Of a stretch of 64,000 nucleotides of DNA, positions 9,977 through 64,000 are shown piece after piece. The notes under the pieces were generated by a model. The model did no database searches, had not been told where the DNA came from, and saw only the letters and a program-made list of their open reading frames with translations. The first letter of the stretch is position 1. Each line of letters begins with the position of its first letter. Position numbers and translations under genes: made by a program. This DNA is from Gammaproteobacteria bacterium (GTDB lineage: Bacteria > Pseudomonadota > Gammaproteobacteria > Pseudomonadales > Pseudohongiellaceae), in NCBI GenBank assembly GCA_050486205.1, contig JBJHCW010000008.1, forward strand, positions 5,219 to 69,218, given 5' to 3'.

Positions 9977-11026
9977 TCAGCCTTCTTTGGCGTAACGTTC
10001 AGCCATCGCCTCCAGACTGTAGATCTTGCCGATACGATCTATCTGACCGGCCGTACCAAATGCTTCCAGTCTGTCCTTGACGATTCCTTTCATGGCTTTT
10101 ATGGTGGGGGTGAGGAATTTGCGCGGATCGAACTCAGCCGGGTTCTCGGCCAGGAACTTGCGAACTGCGCCGGTGGACGCCAGTCGCAGGTCGGTATCGA
10201 TATTGACCTTGCGTACCCCGTGGCGGATGCCTTCCTGAATTTCTTCCACCGGCACACCATAGGTCTCCGGGATTTCACCACCAAACTCATTGATTACCGC
10301 CAGCCATTCCTGCGGCACTGATGAGGAACCGTGCATGACCAGATGCGTATTGGGAATGCGCTGGTGAATTTCCTTGATACGCTTGATGGCCAGGATGTCA
10401 CCTGTGGGCGGACGACTGAATTTATAGGCCCCATGACTGGTACCCACTGCAATGGCCAGTGCGTCCACACCCGTGGCTTTGACAAAATCTGCCGCCTCTT
10501 CCGGGTCGGTCAGCATCTGCTCCATGGACAGCTTGCCCTCGGCGCCAATACCATCTTCCTCTCCGGCCATACCGGTTTCCAGCGAGCCCAGGCAACCGAT
10601 CTCACCTTCCACTGACACACCACAGGCATGGGCCATTTCCACGGTCAGGCGTGTGACCCGTACATTGTAGTCAAAATCGGTTGGTGTCTTGCCGTCCTCT
10701 CCCAGCGAGCCGTCCATCATCACCGAAGAGAAACCCAACTGAATCGACCGCTGACACACTGCCGGGGATACACCGTGATCCTGATGCATGACAATGGGAA
10801 TGTGCGGAAACTCCTCGATGGCCGCTTCAATCATGTGCTTGAGAAATCGCGACCCGGCGTATTTCCGGGCACCGGCAGATGCCTGGAGTATGACAGGACT
10901 GTGCGCTTCGTTGGCAGCTTCCATGATTGCGCGCGTCTGTTCCAGATTGTTCACATTGAATGCCGGCACACCGTAGCCGTGCTCGGCCGCGTGATCCAGC
11001 AACTGTCGTAGACTGATGAGCGCCAT
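9977..11026 (-). CDS. fba: class II fructose-1,6-bisphosphate aldolase
   Basis: 349-aa ORF with N-terminus [29 protein letters not shown] and zinc ligand regions VMHQDHG and [10 protein letters not shown]. It is the last gene of the tkt-epd-pgk-fba block. Confidence 0.93.
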
Positions 11027-54719: not shown

Positions 54720-55514
54720 TCAGTTCAGCTTGCCAAAATCGATGTTGCCACCATCATCATTGAGAAAGTCGAGATCCAGCGCAAGGCCTGCCGCCTTGTT
54801 CTGGGCGTCACGCCTGGCAACAAACTGCGGAATACGACCAAGAAGCTGAATATTCTGCATGGATATCAATTGGCAATAGGCCAGCTGTAAAGTGTTGGAG
54901 TGACGCAGCCGCAGAAACTGCTTGTCATCCAGGGCAATCAGTTTGTCCTCGTCAATCTTGTAAAGACCCTTGATTTCTTGCTCGCCGCTGTCCAGACGCA
55001 CCTTCAGTTTCCAGGGCACCAGCAGGCCCAGCTCATTCAGCAGATTTGCCATTTTGGCCGTTTCTATCCGCGACTTCTCTACTTTACCAAGAATTTCCAT
55101 GAGGCCTTGAACAACTTCAGTGGGTGTGCCGTCCTCATCAAAAAATGCCTGGTCTTGTTCATCACTGCTCATCAACCCGCTGGTCTCATCAAAACACAAT
55201 GCCAGCTGTCCTTCTTTCTCAGTGGGCAACATCCTGAATGGGTAGGTGCGGATGATTGCAGGTTTGTACGCACCAAGCCATTTGCCGTCATGGTCAATAA
55301 AAACGTTCTTGTCCGAACCCAGGGATGTCAGTGCCACAAGATTGAACTGATCGTCATCGGGCACAAAACACAGAGGCAGATTGATAGTAGCAGCATGCAG
55401 TTCATCGGCCACGATGGGGAGCACCTGCTCCTTGCCAAAGAGTGTATAGGAGGTATTCGGCTTCCAGAACCGGCCTTTGTGCGTTTCCTGGCTGATCACG
55501 GTGTAACGGGTCAT
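54720..55514 (-). CDS. SapC-family protein
   Basis: 264-aa ORF. The N-terminal half (HKGRFWKP...LPIVADELHAATINLPLCF...FNLVALTSL) matches my recollection of the SapC family pattern. It lies downstream of the S-layer-like gene. Confidence 0.65.
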   Translation of the reverse strand: MTRYTVISQETHKGRFWKPNTSYTLFGKEQVLPIVADELHAATINLPLCFVPDDDQFNLVALTSLGSDKNVFIDHDGKWLGAYKPAIIRTYPFRMLPTEKEGQLALCFDETSGLMSSDEQDQAFFDEDGTPTEVVQGLMEILGKVEKSRIETAKMANLLNELGLLVPWKLKVRLDSGEQEIKGLYKIDEDKLIALDDKQFLRLRHSNTLQLAYCQLISMQNIQLLGRIPQFVARRDAQNKAAGLALDLDFLNDDGGNIDFGKLN

Positions 55515-55627: not shown

Positions 55628-58315
55628 TCAGGCGAAGACGTAGAGCTCGCCGGCGGCAATGGCGTCCAGACCGCCAACGTCTGTCATACCGGCCAGCTTG
55701 ATCAACACACCATCGTTGACACCATCTTCTCCGTAGATGTAGCTGTTACCTACATACTCGAAGACCACGGCTTCGTTGGCACCAGCCGCAGCGGCGGCGA
55801 TGTCCACTGCCTGCTCCAGTGTGGACGGACCTGCACCCAGGAAGGTCAACAAGCCGTCTTCGATTTGCCAAGTAGCACCATCCGTGCCGTCTCCGGCCAC
55901 ATCAACACCCGTGGCTTCGATGACATCGAACCCGGCCTGGGCAGTTTTGCCTTTGGCATCTGCCTGGCCAAGACCTTCAATCACTCGGTGTGCAGCAATG
56001 ACAGCAGCAGAACCGGTTGCCACAGACTGTGCACCTATAACGTCATCGCCAGAGCCCACTTTCAGTGTGCCAGTGGCAGCGATGTCATCCAGCTCAATGG
56101 TCAGTGCGCCCGTCATGGCGGATGCGTCAACAGATGCGAAGGCGTTGCCGCTTGAAGTAAGCGTCAGCGCCTGGGAACCGTCAACAGTCACTACCTTCGC
56201 ACCAGTACCACCTGTGTTGATGTCGGCCACGTTGCTGGCTTTGGCACCACCGGAAGTGATGTTGTACGTATTCGCCGCGTTAGCTGCTGTCAGATTGATG
56301 GTCTGAACATTGTCGGCAGCCACTGAGTTCGCATGCGTGTTATTGCTGTCAAACACCAGGTTCAAGGTTGTCGCGTTGGTGGCGTTCAGCGTTGCAGTGT
56401 TCGCATTGGCAGCTGCTGTAGCGCTGTCGGTATCCATGGTGATCGTAAGAGCACCGGCAGTCTTCTGTGTCAGGCTAAGCGTAGGACCTGCCATGTCACC
56501 TGTAATGCGGAAGCCTACACCGGCACCAACATTCTGCAACGTAGAGGCGCCAACCAATGCGGCAGAACCGATCAGTTCACCCACGGTATTGTTCTGGGCC
56601 AGGATGTCCATGTCCAGATTACCGTTCATGCCAGCGACATCAAAGCGCTGGAAGTTGCTGAACACACCCGCATTGGCTGAACCCACACCAGACAGACCCA
56701 GTGTGTTGGTACCACTGCCGCCGCTGATGGAGTCGCCTGCACGTACAACACCGCCGCCGAAGGCGAATGTGTCATTGCCAGCACCCAGATCAACATTCAA
56801 TGTACCAGTAGCACCACGAGCCACCAGGGTTACAGTGTCGTTGCCGGCACCTGTGTTGATGGTGGTCGCACCAGTGCTTGTTCCATTGACCGTTACAGTG
56901 TCATTACCGCCGCCGGACGTTACGTTGGTAGCACCCGCACCAGCGGTGTTGACAGTAATGGTGTTGTTGCCGGCACCCGCGTTCAGGTTGGCAGCAACAG
57001 TTGCTGTTGTGCCAGTGGAGATGGTCACCGTGTCATTGCCGGAACCCGTATTGATAGTGCGCAGGTTTGCAGCAGCAGTGGTCTGACCACCAAAGGTGAT
57101 CGCACCGGTGCTGTCACCCGCGTTCAGGGTATGCAGTGCAGCGCCTGTCAGCGTCAGCGTTGTTGCAACCGCTGTGTTGACGTTGGCAGCAGTCTGGGCT
57201 CCGCCTGTTTCTAGGTGGGCAGCCAGCGTAGCACCCGTTGCCATGCTACCGGAGATGTTGAGCGCATTGGTTGCAGCAACACCCTCGGCATTCAGGGTAT
57301 TCGCACCTGATACACCGCTCAGGGCTACATTGACTGTAGCGCCGGTACCGGTGACCGTGTTGTTCATTGCGGTTATGCCGTTAAAGCCGGCAGTCACAGA
57401 CGCACCGAGGCCAGAGACGTCACTCGCCCAGCCGAACTGCCAAACCTGCTGGGCACCCTCAAAACGGCTGGCTACAACAGTTGCGCCATCTGTGGTGAAA
57501 GGTGTGGTGCCATCCAGATTACGGATGTTGATGGTTTCTATGTTTTTGATGGTGGCGGAATTCGGCAGCGTTTCGTTGCGCTCGGTAGTACCATCAAACT
57601 CGCTATAGATGTTGAGAGTATCATTTCCAGCACCACCATCCAGCTGATCAAAAGCGGTCAGTGTCGATGCAGGGTCACCAGCAGCATTGATGGTCAACGC
57701 GTTGAACGTATCGTTACCGTCACCGCCCACAAACTCGTCCGGACCTGTTGTCAGGCGGAAAGTCTGTCCGGGAACGGATGTTGTACCGTCAGCCTTGGCC
57801 TTTCCGGCTGTAACACTGGCTTCAGTTTCGTCAACGTCGGCAATCACGTCCTGCAGGTCGGCCAGGCTGGCACCGTCTTTCTGCAGTGTGACGGAGAAGT
57901 ACTCGGCAACCTCTACACGATTGGCGAACGCCTGGGAAGCATCGCCCCAGTTCTCGTCGTCTGCCGGTACGTCGCGCAGCGCCTGGATAGCGGCAATGAT
58001 GACCTGGGCTTTTGTGGCACCGGCATTCATTTCAGCTGTCAGCGTGTCGATGGCCCACTGACGATCCTCTGCAGCGACCTTGCCGCCAACAACGTTATCA
58101 ACGAAGCGGGTAACAAACTCTTGATTGGTCAGGAAAGCAGGGTACTTGTTGGTAAAGATCGGGTTTTGTGTAAGGTTTTCGGTCAGCGACTCGAATGTAC
58201 CACCCGCCTGGAAGTACGCAGCCAGTTCAGCAAGATTTGTCTTGCCGGGCGCTGCGCCCCATACGGCAACCGACAGCGCGATGATATCGGTTCTATCTTG
58301 GACAGTGAAAGACAT
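55628..58315 (-). CDS. RTX-like, RsaA-type surface-layer / type I secretion substrate protein
   Basis: 895-aa Gly/Thr/Ala/Asn-rich ORF with no Cys and no signal peptide. It has seven GGxGNDT-type repeats (GGDGNDTFN, GGAGNDTLN, GSGNDTVT, GGGNDTVT, GAGNDTVT, GAGNDTFA) and a hydrophobic acidic C-terminus (..IKLAGMTDVGGLDAIAAGELYVFA). There is a strong RBS (GGAG, 6 nt) and a dedicated terminator. Confidence 0.7.
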   Translation of the reverse strand: MSFTVQDRTDIIALSVAVWGAAPGKTNLAELAAYFQAGGTFESLTENLTQNPIFTNKYPAFLTNQEFVTRFVDNVVGGKVAAEDRQWAIDTLTAEMNAGATKAQVIIAAIQALRDVPADDENWGDASQAFANRVEVAEYFSVTLQKDGASLADLQDVIADVDETEASVTAGKAKADGTTSVPGQTFRLTTGPDEFVGGDGNDTFNALTINAAGDPASTLTAFDQLDGGAGNDTLNIYSEFDGTTERNETLPNSATIKNIETINIRNLDGTTPFTTDGATVVASRFEGAQQVWQFGWASDVSGLGASVTAGFNGITAMNNTVTGTGATVNVALSGVSGANTLNAEGVAATNALNISGSMATGATLAAHLETGGAQTAANVNTAVATTLTLTGAALHTLNAGDSTGAITFGGQTTAAANLRTINTGSGNDTVTISTGTTATVAANLNAGAGNNTITVNTAGAGATNVTSGGGNDTVTVNGTSTGATTINTGAGNDTVTLVARGATGTLNVDLGAGNDTFAFGGGVVRAGDSISGGSGTNTLGLSGVGSANAGVFSNFQRFDVAGMNGNLDMDILAQNNTVGELIGSAALVGASTLQNVGAGVGFRITGDMAGPTLSLTQKTAGALTITMDTDSATAAANANTATLNATNATTLNLVFDSNNTHANSVAADNVQTINLTAANAANTYNITSGGAKASNVADINTGGTGAKVVTVDGSQALTLTSSGNAFASVDASAMTGALTIELDDIAATGTLKVGSGDDVIGAQSVATGSAAVIAAHRVIEGLGQADAKGKTAQAGFDVIEATGVDVAGDGTDGATWQIEDGLLTFLGAGPSTLEQAVDIAAAAAGANEAVVFEYVGNSYIYGEDGVNDGVLIKLAGMTDVGGLDAIAAGELYVFA

Positions 58316-58433
58316 GTAAAACTCCTTTAATTTTTAAGGTTTTGCTCTTTTCATTTCAGACAAGCAATTGCTGACTGATGAATACTATTTGCCACGATCG
58401 CCGGTAATACTACACCCGGCCTGATCCGGACGG

Positions 58434-58449
58434 TGTGATCACAGTCACA
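58434..58449. promoter_or_regulatory. perfect CRP-type box TGTGA-TCACAG-TCACA upstream of the S-layer-like gene
   Basis: Read directly. Both half-sites match the TGTGA-N6-TCACA consensus, 119-134 nt upstream of ATG 58315. Confidence 0.5.
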
Positions 58450-58624
58450 GGCACCCTGAAAGCAAAGGCTTTCGTGGATTTCCTTTCTACACGCCCTCAC
58501 CATCAGTGACTTCAGTTGCGGGCATAATTGCGCAGCAGATTGTACCTTCTGGCCTGCACTGATACAACCACATATTGAACGAGTTTAAGTATTATTCGCA
58601 AATCTTTGTTTATTAACAAATATT

Positions 58625-60013
58625 TTAAAAACTGTAGCGCATTCCCAGCTCGACGGCGGTATCATTGCTGCTGAAAAGAACAATATTGCTGCGCTGGCGT
58701 TGTCGGTAGAGGTTTATCAGCAGGATACCGCCCAGAACCGTGGGTTGACGGTACTGGAGCTGGACAAAACTGCGGCTCAGGGCACGACGCTGGCCGTTGG
58801 CCAGCAATTCGCTGTATATGTCCCGATCCTCGAGTCGGGTATGTCCGGCCTGGGCCGCCAGCACACCGGCCAGAACGGGTCGCTGCCAGTCCATGCGAGC
58901 CTGCCAGCCCACCCTGTCACCACCGGGGCGGCCACCTCGAACGGCAAAACTGTTCAGCAGGCCCAGCTCGGCTGTATAGACGGCCCCGGAACCCTCATTC
59001 CGGCAGTGCAAGCCGCCTGCATTGCGGGCCTCCACCGTATTCAGATTGCCGTTCCCCTGGTGGTAGTGCTGGTACTGCGCGGCGACCGTATAATACGGCG
59101 CGCAACTGTGCTCGTTCTCCACCTGGTACCGGGCGTTTGTTTCAAAAGCGCTGAACAGCGGGTTTCCACCCACGGCCAGGTGGGCCAGGGCGCCTCCCAG
59201 TTCCCAACTGTGATCACGCGCCGGGCGCAGCCAGGCGTATCTTGTATTGATCTGCGTAATGTCCGAACGCGTGTCCTCACTGATCCTGCCACTGATTTCG
59301 GCCAGAAAGTTATGACTGTGACCGGGGGCAAACTGCGTGAAATGACCAGCGAGCCTGACGTTGCCATAAGCGCCGCTGATCGGCAGGAACTCCGGGCTCA
59401 GTTCCAGATCCACAGGTTCCCCGGATAAGGTGAGGGTTATTCGATTGCTTAATGGTCCGCGGTTAAGATTGTTGTCAAAACCAGCCAGAAGGTCCAATTC
59501 GCCACCCAGTCGCCGGGTCATGCTCTGCCATTCCGCCTGACGGCGCCCCAGCATGATCTGCAATGCTTCAGGCAAATCCGGACGGGCCAGTACCTGGCGA
59601 TTCATGTCCAGTGCAGGGAACAGTTGCCCCTGCAGAAACAGCGCCTGTGCATAGTCAATCTGGGCAGCACCGTAATCCGGGTCAGTCAGCAGCGCACGCT
59701 CCAGTGACTCAATGGCTGCAGATACCTGCCCGCTGTTCAGCTGTGCCGCACCGTAAAGCGAAAAATACTCGGCACTGTCCAGACACAGGGGCATCAGCCG
59801 GGAAAGCTCGCGCTCCAGCACAAACCAGTTGGTCTGCTCATCGGGGTAATAGGCGCCAAGATCCGGGCAGGAAAGACGCTCATCAGCATGTCCGGCCAGG
59901 CTGCCCATCAGCAGGCTGGCACACAACACCCAGCCAGACCAAAGCAACAGTCCCGACCTGACAGGCCGGGACTGGCCGGAATCGGAGGTCGGCACGGGAT
60001 GCGATTTCAACAT
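58625..60013 (-). CDS. outer-membrane beta-barrel protein with N-terminal TPR region (Slam/DUF560-like)
   Basis: Signal peptide (..SLAGHA), two or more TPR-like repeats (AIESLERALLTDPDYGAAQIDYAQALF), a C-terminal half with alternating beta pattern, and terminal VELGMRYSF. ATG 60013 is preferred. Confidence 0.6.
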   Translation of the reverse strand: MLKSHPVPTSDSGQSRPVRSGLLLWSGWVLCASLLMGSLAGHADERLSCPDLGAYYPDEQTNWFVLERELSRLMPLCLDSAEYFSLYGAAQLNSGQVSAAIESLERALLTDPDYGAAQIDYAQALFLQGQLFPALDMNRQVLARPDLPEALQIMLGRRQAEWQSMTRRLGGELDLLAGFDNNLNRGPLSNRITLTLSGEPVDLELSPEFLPISGAYGNVRLAGHFTQFAPGHSHNFLAEISGRISEDTRSDITQINTRYAWLRPARDHSWELGGALAHLAVGGNPLFSAFETNARYQVENEHSCAPYYTVAAQYQHYHQGNGNLNTVEARNAGGLHCRNEGSGAVYTAELGLLNSFAVRGGRPGGDRVGWQARMDWQRPVLAGVLAAQAGHTRLEDRDIYSELLANGQRRALSRSFVQLQYRQPTVLGGILLINLYRQRQRSNIVLFSSNDTAVELGMRYSF

Positions 60014-60109
60014 GCGGGGATTATCAAGAATTGGCCTGCTCCGTGCAACTACGATTCCCTGAAACGTGACACCGTGCAAGCACACCTGTCTATCAGGCGC
60101 TCAGCCGTG

Positions 60110-62134
60110 TCAGGCTGCCGGCCCCTGAGAACGCCCGCCCACCAAAACCTTAAGGGCAGGGCTGCCGGTTCTGGTTTGATCGGGGCTGGTCGCATTGTCG
60201 GCAATGGCCAGCGAATACAGAGTCTGAGGCACTCTCAGACCGGGTAGCAGATAACGCCCCTGGGACTGCAGGCTCTGATCACCGGCAAGTCGGGCCGCGC
60301 CTTCACCCACCAATACTGGCAGGGCAAGCTCAGCGGTCATTTCCTGCACACGCAGGGCAATAGTCACAGTATCACCCAACAGGGCATGGCTGCGCCGCTG
60401 GGCCGGGCCTATGGAGCCCATCAGCACAGGCCCCTGTTCCACACCGATGCCAAGACCCAGTGGCTCCAGTCCTTCAGGCGCGCGGGCTGGCAGCAGATCA
60501 CGCTGCATGACAATCTGCATTTCCCGGGCAGCGTCCAGCGCCTGATGGACACCTGCGGAGTCGCCACTCCATACTGCCAGCAGACCATCACCCTTGAATT
60601 CATGGACGCGACCGTCATGACGCTCGATGATAGCTGTGGCCAACAGCAGAAAGCTGTGCAGCAACGTAGCAGATTCCTCTGGCGGTCGCGCCTCGGTGTA
60701 GGCAGAAAAATTACGCAGGTCAGCGCTCAAGAGTGTCACTTCCAGCCGACGGGCATTGATATCCGAGCTGGGCACACTGTAGGCGATCTCACGGGCGACG
60801 TCCGATGGCAGATAACTGTTCAGGTTGCTGTAAACACGATCATGCTCCATTCGAACGCGGCTGTGCTCCAGCAATAACAGCAGGGTACCGGCCAGCACAC
60901 TGAACAGGCTCGGCACCAGCCAACCCAGCCAGATATTTGCCGAACCAAGCAGCACAGCATGCAGCACCAGCATGGAAACCGGCAGCAGCACGGCTGCCAC
61001 GGGCAGGCCATACATGGCCAGACGCTGGCGGAAACTGGCCAGCACCAGCAGAACCACACCTGCTATACCGGCAAGCATCCACATCAACAGGGGTGCGCCG
61101 CGCGGGGTCCACGGCATGTCAGCATCCAGCAGGCTGCTGATAATACGTGCCTGCAGCTCGACACCAGGTGTGATGCCGCTGTGAGGTGTAGGCACGAAGT
61201 CACGCAGCCCGAAGGCCGTCGCGCCGATCAGCGTCCAGGTATTGTCCAGCATGGCCGGATCGAAATTGCCATCCAGCACGTCAGCCGCGGATATTGCCTG
61301 ATAGGCGTCTGGCAGGTTCCTGTAGGAGACTCTGATATTGCCGTTGGCATCCAGCGGAATTGAAAGACCCGGATAGGCGTCCAGCTCAAGCGTTGAGGCC
61401 GGTGCCAGCAGGGACACACCGGGCTGCACGCGTGCGTGCCACTCATTGCCATCCGGCTGCGCACGCACAGCCGTAAGCAAGGCGCTGATGGCAAGTGCCG
61501 GGTACGCCTCACCCTCCACGCAAATATAGGCGGGCACATGACGGACACCGCCATCGCTGGCAACAATGGGGGTGATATGACCCTTGGGCAGACCGGCAAA
61601 TCCGCTGTTATTGGCAAGATAATTGTGAGTCGCGGGCACACCGGCACAACTGACACCTGTCAACGCATGTGTCATGGTGCCAGCCTGTATGCTCTGGCGC
61701 GCACCGATCACCGGCACCTGAGCCAACACACCGTTACCGGCCGTCAGGGCCGCCATGAATTGCTGGTCCCCTTCACGTTGCTCAGGGAATACGACATCGT
61801 AAATCTGCAGCTGCGCGCCAGCATCGGTCAGGGCCGTGGAGAGTGCTGCCATGGTTTCTCGCGACCAGGGCCAGGGGCCAATGCGGGCCAGACTTCGCTC
61901 GTCAATGGCAATCAGGGTCAATCGCTGCTCGGGAATCGATTCTGCGCCCAGTTTCCAGGCTTCACTACCTACACGCTCCTCAAGCAAACGTAGCTGGCTT
62001 CCAAAAACCAGCAGCAGAACAACAGTCAGCAAAGCGGCCACCAGCAGCGTCACTAGCCGTGCCAACGCCGGTGAAAGACGCAAGGTCAACACCAGCGGGC
62101 CGGACAGACCGCGAGAGGCGGACGGCAGTTTCAT
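60110..62134 (-). CDS. CHASE2-domain sensor fused to class III adenylate/guanylate cyclase
   Basis: 674-aa ORF with an N-terminal TM, a roughly 300-aa periplasmic domain, three TM segments, and a cyclase core (VTLLSADLRNFSAY ... EFKGDGLLAVW ... LLGDTVTIALRVQ). Its ATG overlaps the FecR-like stop (ATGA 62131-62134). Confidence 0.82.
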   Translation of the reverse strand: MKLPSASRGLSGPLVLTLRLSPALARLVTLLVAALLTVVLLLVFGSQLRLLEERVGSEAWKLGAESIPEQRLTLIAIDERSLARIGPWPWSRETMAALSTALTDAGAQLQIYDVVFPEQREGDQQFMAALTAGNGVLAQVPVIGARQSIQAGTMTHALTGVSCAGVPATHNYLANNSGFAGLPKGHITPIVASDGGVRHVPAYICVEGEAYPALAISALLTAVRAQPDGNEWHARVQPGVSLLAPASTLELDAYPGLSIPLDANGNIRVSYRNLPDAYQAISAADVLDGNFDPAMLDNTWTLIGATAFGLRDFVPTPHSGITPGVELQARIISSLLDADMPWTPRGAPLLMWMLAGIAGVVLLVLASFRQRLAMYGLPVAAVLLPVSMLVLHAVLLGSANIWLGWLVPSLFSVLAGTLLLLLEHSRVRMEHDRVYSNLNSYLPSDVAREIAYSVPSSDINARRLEVTLLSADLRNFSAYTEARPPEESATLLHSFLLLATAIIERHDGRVHEFKGDGLLAVWSGDSAGVHQALDAAREMQIVMQRDLLPARAPEGLEPLGLGIGVEQGPVLMGSIGPAQRRSHALLGDTVTIALRVQEMTAELALPVLVGEGAARLAGDQSLQSQGRYLLPGLRVPQTLYSLAIADNATSPDQTRTGSPALKVLVGGRSQGPAA

Positions 62135-63570
62135 TGAGAAGCGCCCCAGAGAGTAATGCCCTGAATCAGGCCACTGCCGAGTTGTTGATCAAAGAAATAA
62201 CCGGCTTCCTTGCCATCCGTGCTGACCGCGCCAGCGATATTCTTGCCCGCACTTCGATTATGGAAGTACCCTCCTGAGAATATCCGCCCCGTAGACGTGA
62301 AATCGAAACGCCCGGTGGCTCTGGAGTCCAGGTTCAGGGTGGTGGCGAAGGTGTTCTGGTCAAAATTGATGCGCAGGTCGCCACCCCTGACGGTCATGGC
62401 CTCTACGGTGCTCGCTCCATGATGGAAGGCCTGGGCGGCATCCAGCGTAAAGCCCACTTCGCCGAGACCCGCATCTACCCTTGCACCATCAGGCTCCTGG
62501 CGGAAGAGTCCGAAATTGGAATTGCCTACAGTGACCTCGCGGCCAGCTCGTGCATCCGAGTAAGCCACTGATATTCCAGGCACCGCCGGTTGGTCACCCG
62601 ATGCCCAGCGGCCCCAGATCAGCTGCCGCTCCCGCAGCGCCTCGGGCGCCAGGGCTGACGCCGGGAGTTTTGGCTGACGGCGAGCCTTGTCAGAGGCAAG
62701 CGCACGTATGGAAACTTCACGCATGGTGACTGATTCCTGATAAAGGTCAGACACTGCATCCTTGGCAATGGCGGCCTCATCCCCTTCACGCAACTCGTCC
62801 AGCTCACTGTCAATCAGCTCATGGAGCTCCTGCTCGGGTCGGGGGCGAAAAACCGGCTCGAGCTGGCCGTGCGCCACCTCGACAATCTGCATCGAACTGC
62901 CCGCCAGTTCGACTCCGCCGCTCAGGCAGGGACCCAGCGCACCCGCGACACAGCCGTCCGAATAAGGCGCGACCACAATCGAGCCTTCATTGACAAGAGC
63001 CCGGACATTGCGCGGGCTGGCGCTGACCACAAAATCTGTGCCACGCACACCAATGGCGGCAATGGGAGTGTCCAGGCGGAATCTGTCACGGGCAGCGCGA
63101 CCGGCGTCACCTGAAATTGACCGGGCTACACCTTCCACCAGTCGAAACTTGACTACCGACTGTTCGGGGCGATCGGCATTGTAGGCGTAGTCGGTTATTT
63201 CCAGGCGGCTGTTGGGCCGAACGCTGACCAGTGCCTGGTCCACAAACCGGATATGGACATGACCGTTGGCCTCAGTGATGATCTGGTCGCTGGCATGGAC
63301 CTGAGATCCAACCTTTACGGGCTTGCGGGAGCTGTCAGCGGCCTGCAGCCAGGCCTTGCCCAACAGCAGGCTGACTTCACCGACGCTGCCATGACCTGAA
63401 ACACCATGACTTTCCTCGGCCACCACCGGATTGCCTGCCAGGAGCAGAACGGTCAGGACAGCAAGAAGTTGTGAAGCGATGCCTGCACGCTTGGCGACAG
63501 GCTTGCTGGAGCTACCGTAACTGTGCATGTTGATGCCCCGGGCAGAAGTGAAATTTTGACTGGACAGCAT
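62131..63570 (-). CDS. FecR-domain periplasmic protein
   Basis: Signal peptide and a FecR-type beta-rich segment (GKAWLQAADSSRKPVKVGSQVHASDQIITEANGHVHIRFVDQALVSVRPNSRLEI). The alternative start ATG 63528 is equally plausible. Confidence 0.72.
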   Translation of the reverse strand: MLSSQNFTSARGINMHSYGSSSKPVAKRAGIASQLLAVLTVLLLAGNPVVAEESHGVSGHGSVGEVSLLLGKAWLQAADSSRKPVKVGSQVHASDQIITEANGHVHIRFVDQALVSVRPNSRLEITDYAYNADRPEQSVVKFRLVEGVARSISGDAGRAARDRFRLDTPIAAIGVRGTDFVVSASPRNVRALVNEGSIVVAPYSDGCVAGALGPCLSGGVELAGSSMQIVEVAHGQLEPVFRPRPEQELHELIDSELDELREGDEAAIAKDAVSDLYQESVTMREVSIRALASDKARRQPKLPASALAPEALRERQLIWGRWASGDQPAVPGISVAYSDARAGREVTVGNSNFGLFRQEPDGARVDAGLGEVGFTLDAAQAFHHGASTVEAMTVRGGDLRINFDQNTFATTLNLDSRATGRFDFTSTGRIFSGGYFHNRSAGKNIAGAVSTDGKEAGYFFDQQLGSGLIQGITLWGASQ

Positions 63571-63592
63571 AACCAGACCGGCGTCATCAGCC

Positions 63593-63608
63593 AGTGATTG
63601 CGGTCACA
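63593..63608. promoter_or_regulatory. CRP-like box AGTGA-TTGCGG-TCACA in the cyclase-operon / crp-like divergent spacer
   Basis: 9 of 10 half-site positions match TGTGA-N6-TCACA. It is 23 nt (or 65 nt) upstream of the FecR-like start. Confidence 0.4.
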
Positions 63609-63735: not shown

Positions 63736-64000
63736 ATGCAGGTCACACCGGAGCTACTGAGCGCCTTTCCTTGCCTGAAACCACTACCTCATGCGACCTT
63801 GCTCCAGCTGGCACGCCATTGCAGCGTACAGCGCTTCGCGCGCAGAGCGGTGGTTCTTAATGCGGGTGTAAGAGAAGGCCACATCTGCTTTCTTTTTGAA
63901 GGCCATCTGCAGGGCGTGGATTTCACCATCGACGGCCGGGAAGTGGGGCTGTACTTTGTTGAGCCGGGCGATTTCTGTGGCGAGCTGGGGATTTTTGACA
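63736..64000 (+). CDS. Crp/Fnr-family cyclic-nucleotide-binding regulator, 3' end outside window
   Basis: My own translation from ATG 63736 is MQVTPELLSAFPCLKPLPHATLLQLARHCSVQRFARRAVVLNAGVREGHICFLFEGHLQGVDFTIDGREVGLYFVEPGDFCGELGIFD. The GDFxGELGxF beta-roll motif is typical of cNMP-binding domains. The frame stays open to the window edge. Confidence 0.75.
   Translation, partial: MQVTPELLSAFPCLKPLPHATLLQLARHCSVQRFARRAVVLNAGVREGHICFLFEGHLQGVDFTIDGREVGLYFVEPGDFCGELGIFD

What the first reader, a model, noticed from the sequence alone, without database searches (positions are those of the whole stretch)
58434..58449. Perfect CRP consensus box in the leader/promoter of the S-layer-like gene
TGTGA-TCACAG-TCACA matches both half-sites of the TGTGA-N6-TCACA consensus perfectly, and it also contains the 10-bp palindrome TGTGATCACA. 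It lies 119-134 nt upstream of the start codon. A weak-35 promoter with -10 TAGTAT (minus strand, 58387-58382) would put the box near -66, a class-I-like position. An alternative promoter TTGTAT-17-TACAAT (58567-58539) would put the box inside the leader. The box sits between the S-layer gene and an operon encoding a nucleotidyl cyclase, and a Crp-family gene lies 5 kb away. This suggests cNMP control of surface-layer production.
Basis: partly seen in the sequence, partly recalled or inferred. Interest (0 to 1): 0.6.

Follow-up and report, generated by a model that had tools for sequence, protein, structure and literature searches.

The report
Conserved activator site switching on S-layer gene
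The perfect CRP-type palindrome is a real, deeply conserved binding site placed at the textbook activating distance from the promoter of a secreted surface-layer-like protein gene. It is most likely read by the Crp-like regulator encoded 5 kb away, not by the cell's general cAMP regulator.

Summary
The box TGTGATCACAGTCACA is at 58434-58449 as described. It is not a chance match.

- **Conservation:** a perfect TGTGA-N6-TCACA lies upstream of the orthologous S-layer-like (SLP) gene in 47 promoter regions of Pseudohongiellaceae. These include copies unlinked to the sensor operon. In several genomes it is the only perfect box.
- **Promoter geometry:** a -10 hexamer (TAnnnT; here TAGTAT, 58412-58407) follows 21-23 nt after the box in 47 of 47 cases, and there is no usable -35. 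This puts the box at about -41.5, a class II activator promoter.
- **Second promoter:** the same box-21 nt-TATGCT unit (63608-63566) drives the FecR/CHASE2-cyclase/OMP operon in 37 of 37 loci.
- **Regulator:** five closed genomes have lost the global CRP/Vfr but keep the box and the local Crp-like gene. The local regulator keeps the CRP DNA-reading residues (R-E-x-x-x-R), so it is the probable binder.
- **Signal:** cyclic-nucleotide control is unproven. The regulator lacks CRP's phosphate-binding Arg-Ser, and the cyclase lacks a catalytic Asn.

The mechanism is ordinary. I found no paper describing this regulon.

The parts
58434..58449 (-). CRP-type operator. On the gene's strand it reads TGTGACTGTGATCACA. 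Its centre is at about -41.5 of the predicted promoter P2 of the S-layer-like gene.
   Evidence: A perfect box is present in 47 orthologous SLP promoters, with 2.0 bits at all 10 half-site positions.
58407..58412 (-). Predicted -10 hexamer TAGTAT of the box-dependent promoter, starting 21 nt after the box. There is no usable -35.
   Evidence: TAnnnT sits at offset 21 (38 cases), 22 (6) or 23 (3), which is 47 of 47, and almost never at other offsets. The best -35 match averages 1.85 of 6.
58399..58402 (-). Predicted transcription start, inferred from the -10 and not mapped. It gives a 5' UTR of about 85 nt.
   Evidence: Inference and the standard 6-8 nt distance from the -10 to +1.
58322..58327 (-). 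Shine-Dalgarno sequence AAGGAG, 6 nt before the ATG at 58315.
   Evidence: AGGAG is conserved in the alignment.
55628..58315 (-). 895-aa S-layer-like, RTX-type surface protein (SLP). It has no Cys and seven GxGNDT repeats. Its N-terminal domain of about 190 aa is conserved.
   Evidence: No Pfam, NCBIfam or PDB match. The N-domain is found in 85 of 151 family genomes.
54720..55514 (-). SapC-family gene downstream of SLP.
   Evidence: Pfam PF07277, E = 2.9e-61.
58539..58567 (-). Upstream sigma70-like element P1 (TTGTAT-17-TACAAT). Its -10 ends 89 nt before the box. It is possibly a tandem basal promoter.
   Evidence: TTGnnn-17/18-TAnnAT (mostly TTGTnn) lies 79-104 nt upstream of the box in 24 of 24 loci examined, including unlinked SLP copies.
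63593..63608 (-). Second box (TGTGACCGCAATCACT, 9 of 10 positions) in the divergent spacer, facing the FecR-cyclase-OMP operon.
   Evidence: Present in 37 of 37 loci, including loci without SLP.
63566..63571 (-). -10 hexamer TATGCT, 21 nt after the second box. It contains the ATG (63570) that the ORF finder calls as the FecR start. The real start is probably the ATG at 63528.
58625..63528 (-). FecR-domain protein, CHASE2 / class III cyclase-like protein and TPR/outer-membrane protein operon.
   Evidence: Pfam. Synteny is conserved in family genomes.
63736..64000 (+). 5' part of the local Crp-family regulator gene (CrpL, 233 aa). It runs off the window; the full gene is genome contig C8:68954-69655.
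   Evidence: The helix-turn-helix S-R-E-x-V-x-R is invariant in 36 orthologues. The closest solved structures are Vfr and CRP.

Best explanation
The box is the operator of a class II (site centred at about -41.5), activator-dependent sigma70 promoter for the S-layer-like gene. A dimer of the local Crp-family regulator (CrpL) binds TGTGAY-N4-RTCACA. The gene for CrpL is transcribed divergently from the FecR/CHASE2-cyclase/OMP operon. Bound CrpL substitutes for the missing -35 and recruits RNA polymerase to the -10 TAGTAT (58412-58407). Transcription would start near 58400, giving an 85-nt leader. The same box-21 nt-(-10) unit drives the sensor operon itself (63608-63566). An envelope signal sensed by the OMP-FecR-CHASE2 proteins would therefore both reinforce the sensor (positive feedback) and switch on the surface protein.

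Shown here:
- The site, its invariance and its fixed spacing to a -10.
- The lack of a -35.
- The twin promoter in front of the sensor operon.
- Co-occurrence with CrpL.
- Persistence in genomes that lack the global CRP.
- CRP-type DNA-reading residues in CrpL.

Inferred:
- Actual binding, activation and the transcription start.
- That a cyclic nucleotide is the link between sensor and regulator.
For: - A perfect box precedes the SLP gene in 11 of 11 syntenic loci, in 30 of 30 further loci, and in copies unlinked to the module, including one 700 kb away.
- The box-to-ATG distance varies from 84 to 247 nt, but TAnnnT lies 21-23 nt after the box in 47 of 47 cases.
- The -35 is poor: 1.85 of 6 on average.
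- 37 of 37 divergent spacers carry the same unit facing the FecR operon, including loci with no SLP.
- The window has exactly two GTGAY-N4-RTCAC sites, and they are these two. Of 31 such cores in the genome, only these two have the -10 at 21-23 nt.
- 84 of 85 SLP+ genomes have CrpL.
- The closed genomes G125, G129, G133, G145 and G160 have no global CRP; G044 has only a crp pseudogene. All keep CrpL and the box promoter.
- In G125, G133, G160 and G044 the SLP box is the only perfect box in the genome.
- CrpL keeps the equivalents of CRP R180/E181/R185 in all 36 orthologues.
- Natural 'box deletions': silent SLP paralogues in G125 and G129 are identical from the base after the box onward but lack the box.
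Against: - No transcription start, binding or expression data exist.
- This genome also has a true CRP/Vfr orthologue with the same recognition residues. It could bind the same box.
- A conserved sigma70-like promoter lies 79-104 nt upstream. The box could therefore also sit in a transcribed leader.
- CrpL lacks CRP Arg82/Ser83, and the cyclase lacks the catalytic Asn. The proposed cNMP link is weak.
- The co-occurrence statistics are confounded by phylogeny. The genomes without CrpL that are listed belong mainly to two genera, which also lack SLP.
Confidence: 0.75

Rival explanations
1. The box is a target of the global cAMP-CRP/Vfr protein (genome contig C1:513006-513641). The S-layer gene would then belong to the general Vfr regulon, and the local Crp-like protein would have other targets or none.
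For: - The genome encodes a bona fide CRP orthologue: NCBIfam CRP equivalog at 347 bits, above the 266-bit cut-off, with R-E-M-A-G-R in the recognition helix.
- The 7 other perfect boxes in this genome lie mostly between genes, near GGDEF-EAL, EAL, Tad-pilus and type IV pilin-like genes. That is a Vfr-like theme.
Against: - Closed genomes without any CRP/Vfr orthologue keep a perfect box at the same distance from the -10.
- The box also sits in the module's own promoter in 37 of 37 loci.
- An invariant 10 of 10 consensus is atypical for sites of a global regulator (established knowledge).
- Cross-talk in this particular genome is not excluded.
Confidence: 0.12
2. The real promoter is the upstream TTGTAT-17-TACAAT (58567-58539). 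The box would then lie at about +84 to +99 of a 220-nt leader. A bound Crp-family protein would repress or roadblock transcription rather than activate it.
For: The upstream promoter-like element is conserved in 24 of 24 loci examined at 79-104 nt from the box, also in unlinked SLP copies. No terminator lies between it and the gene.
Against: - This reading does not explain the invariant 21-23 nt spacing to a -10 hexamer.
- It does not explain the same unit in front of the FecR operon.
- Promoters in G145 and G160 show no such upstream element yet keep the box and the -10.
- The two readings are not exclusive: tandem promoters are possible.
Confidence: 0.08
3. The palindrome is a recombination site used for exchanging S-layer gene cassettes, not a transcription-factor site.
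For: In genomes with several SLP paralogues, the homology between the box-bearing copy and the copies without a box begins exactly at the 3' edge of the box (G125, G129).
Against: - The same palindrome, with the same -10 spacing, stands in front of the FecR operon in genomes that have no SLP at all.
- This genome has a single SLP copy.
- The sequence is the exact CRP consensus, and a regulator with matching residues is linked to it.
Confidence: 0.02
4. Chance occurrence of the consensus in an intergenic region.
For: 9 of 100 shuffles of the window give at least one perfect match.
Against: All ten positions are invariant across 46 unique orthologous promoters from nine genera, while the flanks diverge.
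Confidence: 0.01

Closest known systems
Class II CRP(CAP)-dependent promoters of Escherichia coli (for example galP1), and FNR class II promoters. This comparison rests on established knowledge.
   Same: A 16-bp TGTGA-N6-TCACA inverted repeat is centred about 41.5 bp upstream of the start. It overlaps and replaces the -35. A -10 hexamer follows 21 nt after the box. The regulator has Arg-Glu...Arg in the recognition helix.
   Different: The probable regulator is a dedicated paralogue. It shares about 22-26% identity with this genome's own CRP/Vfr orthologue. Its regulon appears to be two promoters. Its sites are invariant perfect or near-perfect consensus. Its effector pocket lacks Arg82/Ser83.
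Sinorhizobium meliloti Clr regulon with the CHASE2 cyclases CyaD1/CyaD2/CyaK and the outer-membrane protein NsrA (PMC5498481, PMC7529298)
   Same: A Crp-family activator is linked to a CHASE2 cyclase. Its targets include a FecR-domain protein gene (smc02177) and secreted or periplasmic proteins. An outer-membrane component lies upstream of the cyclase.
   Different: The Clr-box is TGTT-N8-AACA / HGTYHCNNNNGRWACA, not TGTGA-N6-TCACA. Clr binds cAMP and cGMP (PMC10127613), whereas CrpL lacks the canonical phosphate-binding residues. The output here is an RTX-type S-layer-like protein.
Pseudomonas aeruginosa Vfr
   Same: It is the closest solved structure to CrpL (E about 1e-16). It recognises a CRP-like half-site and controls surface structures rather than catabolism (established knowledge).
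   Different: Vfr is a global regulator. Its orthologue here is a separate gene (contig C1:513006-513641), and it is dispensable for conservation of the box.
Campylobacter fetus sapA S-layer locus: one promoter, several promoterless sapA homologues, SapC-F nearby. This comparison rests on established knowledge.
   Same: An S-layer protein secreted by type I secretion lies next to a SapC-family gene. The N-terminus is conserved. In some Pseudohongiellaceae genomes there are several paralogues with identical 5' ends, of which only one or a few carry the promoter.
   Different: No Crp-type control is known to me for sapA. This genome has a single copy. No invertible segment was looked for.

Membership tests
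Class II Crp/Fnr-type activator-dependent promoter | Inverted repeat matching the regulator's consensus (TGTGA-N6-TCACA) | tested here: met
   10 of 10 positions at 58434-58449, and invariant in 47 orthologous promoters.
Class II Crp/Fnr-type activator-dependent promoter | Site centred near -41.5, so that the -10 hexamer begins about 21-22 nt after the 16-mer | tested here: met
   TAnnnT lies 21-23 nt after the box in 47 of 47 cases. Here it is TAGTAT at 58412-58407. The start site itself is not mapped.
Class II Crp/Fnr-type activator-dependent promoter | Weak or absent -35 hexamer | tested here: met
   The best match to TTGACA at 16-18 nt spacing averages 1.85 of 6 and never exceeds 3.
Class II Crp/Fnr-type activator-dependent promoter | Transcription depends on the bound regulator | not testable with these tools
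   This needs reporter, EMSA or transcript data. Indirect support: silent paralogues lack only the box.
Crp-family regulator with CRP-type DNA specificity (CrpL) | Equivalents of CRP Arg180, Glu181 and Arg185 in the recognition helix | tested here: met
   S-R-E-x-V-x-R is invariant in 36 orthologues and aligns to the CRP/Vfr R-E-x-x-G-R.
cAMP/cGMP receptor protein (CRP, Vfr and Clr type) | Phosphate-binding cassette Arg82-Ser/Thr83 after the GELG motif | tested here: not met
   Two independent alignments (HMMER, MAFFT) place an invariant Q-P-E there. Glu72 (GELG) and Arg123 are kept.
Global cAMP-CRP/Vfr regulon member | The site's conservation tracks presence of the global CRP | tested here: not met
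   The box promoter is kept in closed genomes without a CRP orthologue.
S. meliloti Clr-type circuit | Crp-like gene next to a CHASE2 cyclase, with an activator box in front of a FecR-domain gene | tested here: met
   The S. meliloti comparison comes from PMC5498481.
S. meliloti Clr-type circuit | Clr-box TGTT-N8-AACA | tested here: not met
   The boxes here are TGTGAY-N4-RTCAC(A/T/G). The Clr consensus is taken from PMC5498481.
Active class III nucleotidyl cyclase | Two metal Asp, a substrate Lys, and the transition-state Asn and Arg | tested here: inconclusive
   The Asp of ADLRNFS and the Lys-x-Asp of FKGDG are present. The Asn of GDTVN is Thr or Ser in the representative orthologues printed from the 32-row alignment. 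The Arg is kept. The residue assignment is from memory of the family motifs.

The most novel reading that the evidence does not exclude
CrpL may be a Crp-family activator that is not gated by a canonical cyclic nucleotide. The envelope-spanning OMP-FecR-CHASE2 'cyclase' has an altered active site. It could control CrpL through an unusual ligand or by direct contact. The CrpL box promoter would be the single expression site of an S-layer cassette system. In some Pseudohongiellaceae, 2 to more than 20 SLP paralogues share the 5' end, and only one or a few carry the box. Free-living marine bacteria would then combine sensor-controlled S-layer production with recombinational S-layer variation, for example against phages or grazers.
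Probability: 0.2. Interest if true: 0.75.

Novelty: new member of a known kind. Interest (0 to 1): 0.5.

Why it matters
How Gram-negative bacteria regulate S-layer production is poorly understood. Here a surface-layer-like gene has a clearly defined, experimentally tractable switch: one 16-bp operator, one dedicated regulator and one envelope sensor operon with positive feedback. The switch is conserved across the SLP-bearing genera of a widespread family of marine oligotrophs, Pseudohongiellaceae.

The result gives a precise prediction for the start site, the operator mutations and the regulator to test. It separates a dedicated CRP paralogue from the global CRP/Vfr even though both read the same DNA word. 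It also corrects the FecR start codon.

The mechanism itself, class II activation, is textbook. I found no paper on this circuit in the searches run. Unchecked notes from this scan describe the same circuit in other genomes.

Tried and rejected
It is not conserved and is on the wrong helical face. It is replaced by the TAGTAT at 58412-58407.
- **Sigma54 promoter.** 'TGGCAC' follows the -10 in many orthologues, but the GG-to-GC spacing is 11-12 nt and variable, and the motif is absent in this genome. Rejected.
- **Sigma28 promoter.** A conserved GCCGATA-like motif lies about 8 nt after the -10. It has no TAAA/-35 partner at the right spacing and is absent from the FecR promoter. Rejected as a promoter; the motif stays unexplained.
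- **Known RNA families in the spacer.** There were only two sub-threshold hits, at 15-16 bits against gathering scores of 35-40.
- **Intrinsic terminator between the OMP gene and SLP.** None found.
- **Consensus RNA structure of the stretch between the upstream promoter and the box.** RNAalifold found no pairs. Single-sequence folds show hairpins, but z-scores range from about +0.4 to -2.5 and are mostly weak. Not established.
- **Genome-wide counts of perfect boxes as a test between CrpL and Vfr.** Counts are small (0-16 per genome in all but G145, which has 37). They are only suggestive.
- **Family or structure match for SLP.** None in Pfam, NCBIfam or PDB sequence searches.
- **Literature.** Searches on Pseudohongiella S-layer, and on CHASE2 with FecR, found nothing on this circuit.

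Full report
**Observation.** The 16-mer TGTGATCACAGTCACA is at 58434-58449.
- It is the only perfect TGTGA-N6-TCACA in the window. The expected number is 0.09, and 9 of 100 shuffles give at least one.
- The 3.51-Mb, 57.5% G+C genome has 8 such sites, against 3 for the reversed control.
- The box lies in the 309-nt spacer between the stop (58625) of a TPR/outer-membrane protein gene and the ATG (58315) of an 895-aa ORF. Both are on the minus strand.
- Upstream on the same strand are a CHASE2 / class III cyclase-like gene and a FecR-domain gene. A SapC-family gene lies downstream.
- A Crp-family gene, here called CrpL, starts at 63736 on the plus strand and runs off the window.
- The 895-aa product has no Cys, is rich in Ala, Thr, Gly and Asn, and has seven GxGNDT repeats. 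It has no family or structure match. 'S-layer-like, RTX-type' is therefore an inference from composition and the SapC neighbour.

**Conservation.** Record titles place the relatives in Pseudohongiellaceae, order Pseudomonadales.
- The order CrpL <-> FecR-cyclase-OMP -> SLP recurs in family genomes, although the proteins are only 33-76% identical.
- A perfect TGTGA-N6-TCACA lies before the SLP gene in 11 of 11 syntenic loci and in 30 of 30 further SLP loci, at -123 to -137 from the ATG.
- It is also present before SLP copies unlinked to the module: G053 at 700 kb, G133 at 66 kb, G022 at 22 kb, and G041 on another contig.
- Across 46 unique promoters (30 share less than 85% identity), all ten half-site positions carry 2.0 bits. 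The other positions stay at or below 1.5 bits, and most are below 0.6.
- In G014, G044, G088, G094, G125, G127, G133, G138 and G160, the only perfect box in the whole genome is the one before SLP.

**Promoter geometry.** The distance from box to ATG ranges from 84 to 247 nt. The distance to a -10-like hexamer is fixed.
- TAnnnT begins 21 nt (38 cases), 22 nt (6) or 23 nt (3) after the box. That is 47 of 47, and the hexamer almost never appears at other offsets.
- Here the hexamer is TAGTAT at 58412-58407. With a start 7 nt further on, near 58400, the box centre (58441.5) is at -41.5.
- The -35 region is poor. The best match to TTGACA averages 1.85 of 6 and never exceeds 3.
- This is the class II architecture of CRP and FNR promoters (established knowledge).
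It would place the box at -66.5 and is not conserved.

**A twin promoter.** The window has exactly two GTGAY-N4-RTCAC sites: this one and 63594-63607.
- On the minus strand the second site reads TGTGACCGCAATCACT. After 21 nt comes TATGCT at 63571-63566.
- The same unit faces the FecR operon in 37 of 37 loci, including those with no SLP gene.
- The ATG that the ORF finder calls as the FecR start (63570) lies inside this -10. The next ATG, at 63528, is the more likely start.
- Of 31 GTGAY-N4-RTCAC cores in the genome, only these two have TAnnnT at the class II distance. The count itself is about what chance would give. What matters is that both sites lie in this locus, oriented toward genes.

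**Which regulator?** The genome has a true CRP/Vfr orthologue on contig C1:513006-513641. It scores 347 bits on the NCBIfam CRP equivalog and has the helix R-E-M-A-G-R. It also has CrpL, with the helix R-E-A-V-S-R. Four lines of evidence favour CrpL.
1. SLP and CrpL co-occur. Of 151 family genomes, 85 have the SLP N-domain, 107 have CrpL, and 84 have both. The one exception is a gene fragment in an 85%-complete assembly.
2. The box sits in the module's own divergent promoter everywhere. This is the usual signature of a local regulator.
3. The global CRP is present in 128 of 151 genomes. It is absent from the closed single-contig genomes G125, G129, G133, G145 and G160, and from the three-contig G065. 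G044 has only a crp remnant with stop codons. In the genomes without it, the only hit to a CRP query is CrpL itself. All of them keep the box-(-10) promoter.
4. The equivalents of CRP R180, E181 and R185 are invariant in 36 CrpL orthologues. The closest solved structures are Vfr and CRP.

Cross-talk with Vfr in this genome remains possible. The other seven perfect boxes lie mostly between genes, near GGDEF-EAL, EAL, Tad-pilus and pilin-like genes. None has the class II -10.

**The signal.** 'cNMP control' is not established.
- Two independent alignments show that CrpL has an invariant Q-P-E where CRP has Arg82-Ser83, the residues that hold the cyclic phosphate.
- The cyclase domain keeps both metal Asp and the substrate Lys. 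It has Thr or Ser in place of the transition-state Asn in every orthologue printed from the 32-row alignment. This residue assignment is from my knowledge of class III cyclases.
- The closest described circuit is S. meliloti Clr with CHASE2 cyclases and NsrA. It uses a different box, TGTT-N8-AACA, and a regulator that binds cAMP and cGMP (PMC5498481, PMC10127613).

**Other anatomy.** A sigma70-like element, TTGTAT-17-TACAAT (58567-58539), lies upstream of the box.
- It is conserved 79-104 nt from the box in 24 of 24 loci examined, including unlinked copies.
- It may be a tandem basal promoter. If so, the box would also lie in that transcript's leader.
- Hairpins between this element and the box are not statistically supported.
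- Rfam and terminator scans found nothing.

**Natural controls.** In genomes with several SLP paralogues, only one or a few copies carry the box.
- In G125 and G129, the copies without a box are identical to the box-bearing copy from the base after the box onward. The shared part includes the -10 and the leader.
- In G160, identity begins just after the -10.
- This resembles the single-promoter, many-cassette arrangement of Campylobacter fetus sapA (established knowledge). It marks the box as the distinguishing feature of the expression site.

The operator is real and is linked to the local Crp-like gene and the cyclase module. However, the geometry is class II, the binder is the local paralogue, and the cyclic-nucleotide link is open.
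- The mechanism is of a known kind. I found no paper on this regulon.
- Unchecked notes from this scan report the same circuit in other genomes. I treated these as leads and re-tested their claims here.

Noticed in passing
window 63566-63608: A second CRP-type box (TGTGACCGCAATCACT on the minus strand) with TATGCT 21 nt downstream drives the FecR-cyclase-OMP operon. The ATG at 63570 that the ORF finder calls lies inside the -10, so the FecR-domain protein probably starts at 63528.
   Followed up: yes
window 58539-58567 and 58450-58532: A conserved sigma70-like element (TTGTAT-17-TACAAT) lies 89 nt upstream of the box, followed by a stretch that folds into hairpins of differing sequence in different genera. 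It could be a tandem promoter, a long structured leader or a small RNA. The structure is not statistically supported.
   Followed up: partly
window 58390-58406; orthologous loci L087-L114: A conserved CCGAT(A)-containing motif lies about 8 nt after the -10, at predicted +3 to +12 (for example TATCCTTGGCACAGCCGATATGCGG; here TACCGGCGATCGTGGCA). It resembles a sigma28 -10 but has no -35 partner. It is absent from the FecR promoter. Its function is unknown.
   Followed up: partly
G125 (L121-L125), G129 (L141-L142), G160 (L135-L140), G145 (L126-L134): Some Pseudohongiellaceae genomes carry 2 to more than 20 SLP paralogues with identical 5' ends. Only one or a few have the box. In G125 and G129, identity to the box-bearing copy starts at the base after the box. 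G145 has 37 perfect boxes and at least 20 SLP copies. This looks like an S-layer cassette or antigenic-variation system.
   Followed up: partly
G044:C1:3041953-3042443; G125, G129, G133, G145, G160: One subclade of a genus has lost the global crp/vfr gene. G044 retains a remnant with stop codons. In the other closed genomes, the module's Crp-like gene is the only hit to a CRP query.
   Followed up: partly
L049, L055, L057-L062 (about position 10698 where CrpL is at 10001-10699): In one genus, a further perfect TGTGA-N6-TCACA overlaps the stop codon of the Crp-like gene. It presumably serves the next gene downstream. This genome does not have it.
   Followed up: no
genome contig C8:68954-69655 (CrpL) and window 60110-62134 (cyclase): CrpL has an invariant Q-P-E where CRP has the phosphate-binding Arg82-Ser83. 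The cyclase domain has Thr or Ser in place of the transition-state Asn of the GDTVN motif. Ordinary cAMP/cGMP signalling is therefore doubtful.
   Followed up: partly
genome C2:433166, C3:30017, C6:280697, C7:180001, C15:9716, C17:274, C22:312: The seven other perfect boxes of this genome lie mostly between genes, next to GGDEF-EAL, EAL, cyclase-like, Tad-pilus (CpaB/TadE) and type IV pilin-like genes. None has a -10 at the class II distance. They are possibly the regulon of the Vfr orthologue.
   Followed up: partly
L034 (G003), L036, L041, L045: In some relatives, 0.7-7 kb of extra DNA separates the cyclase gene from the OMP gene. In others the SLP gene has moved away from the module. The box travels with the SLP gene.
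   Followed up: partly
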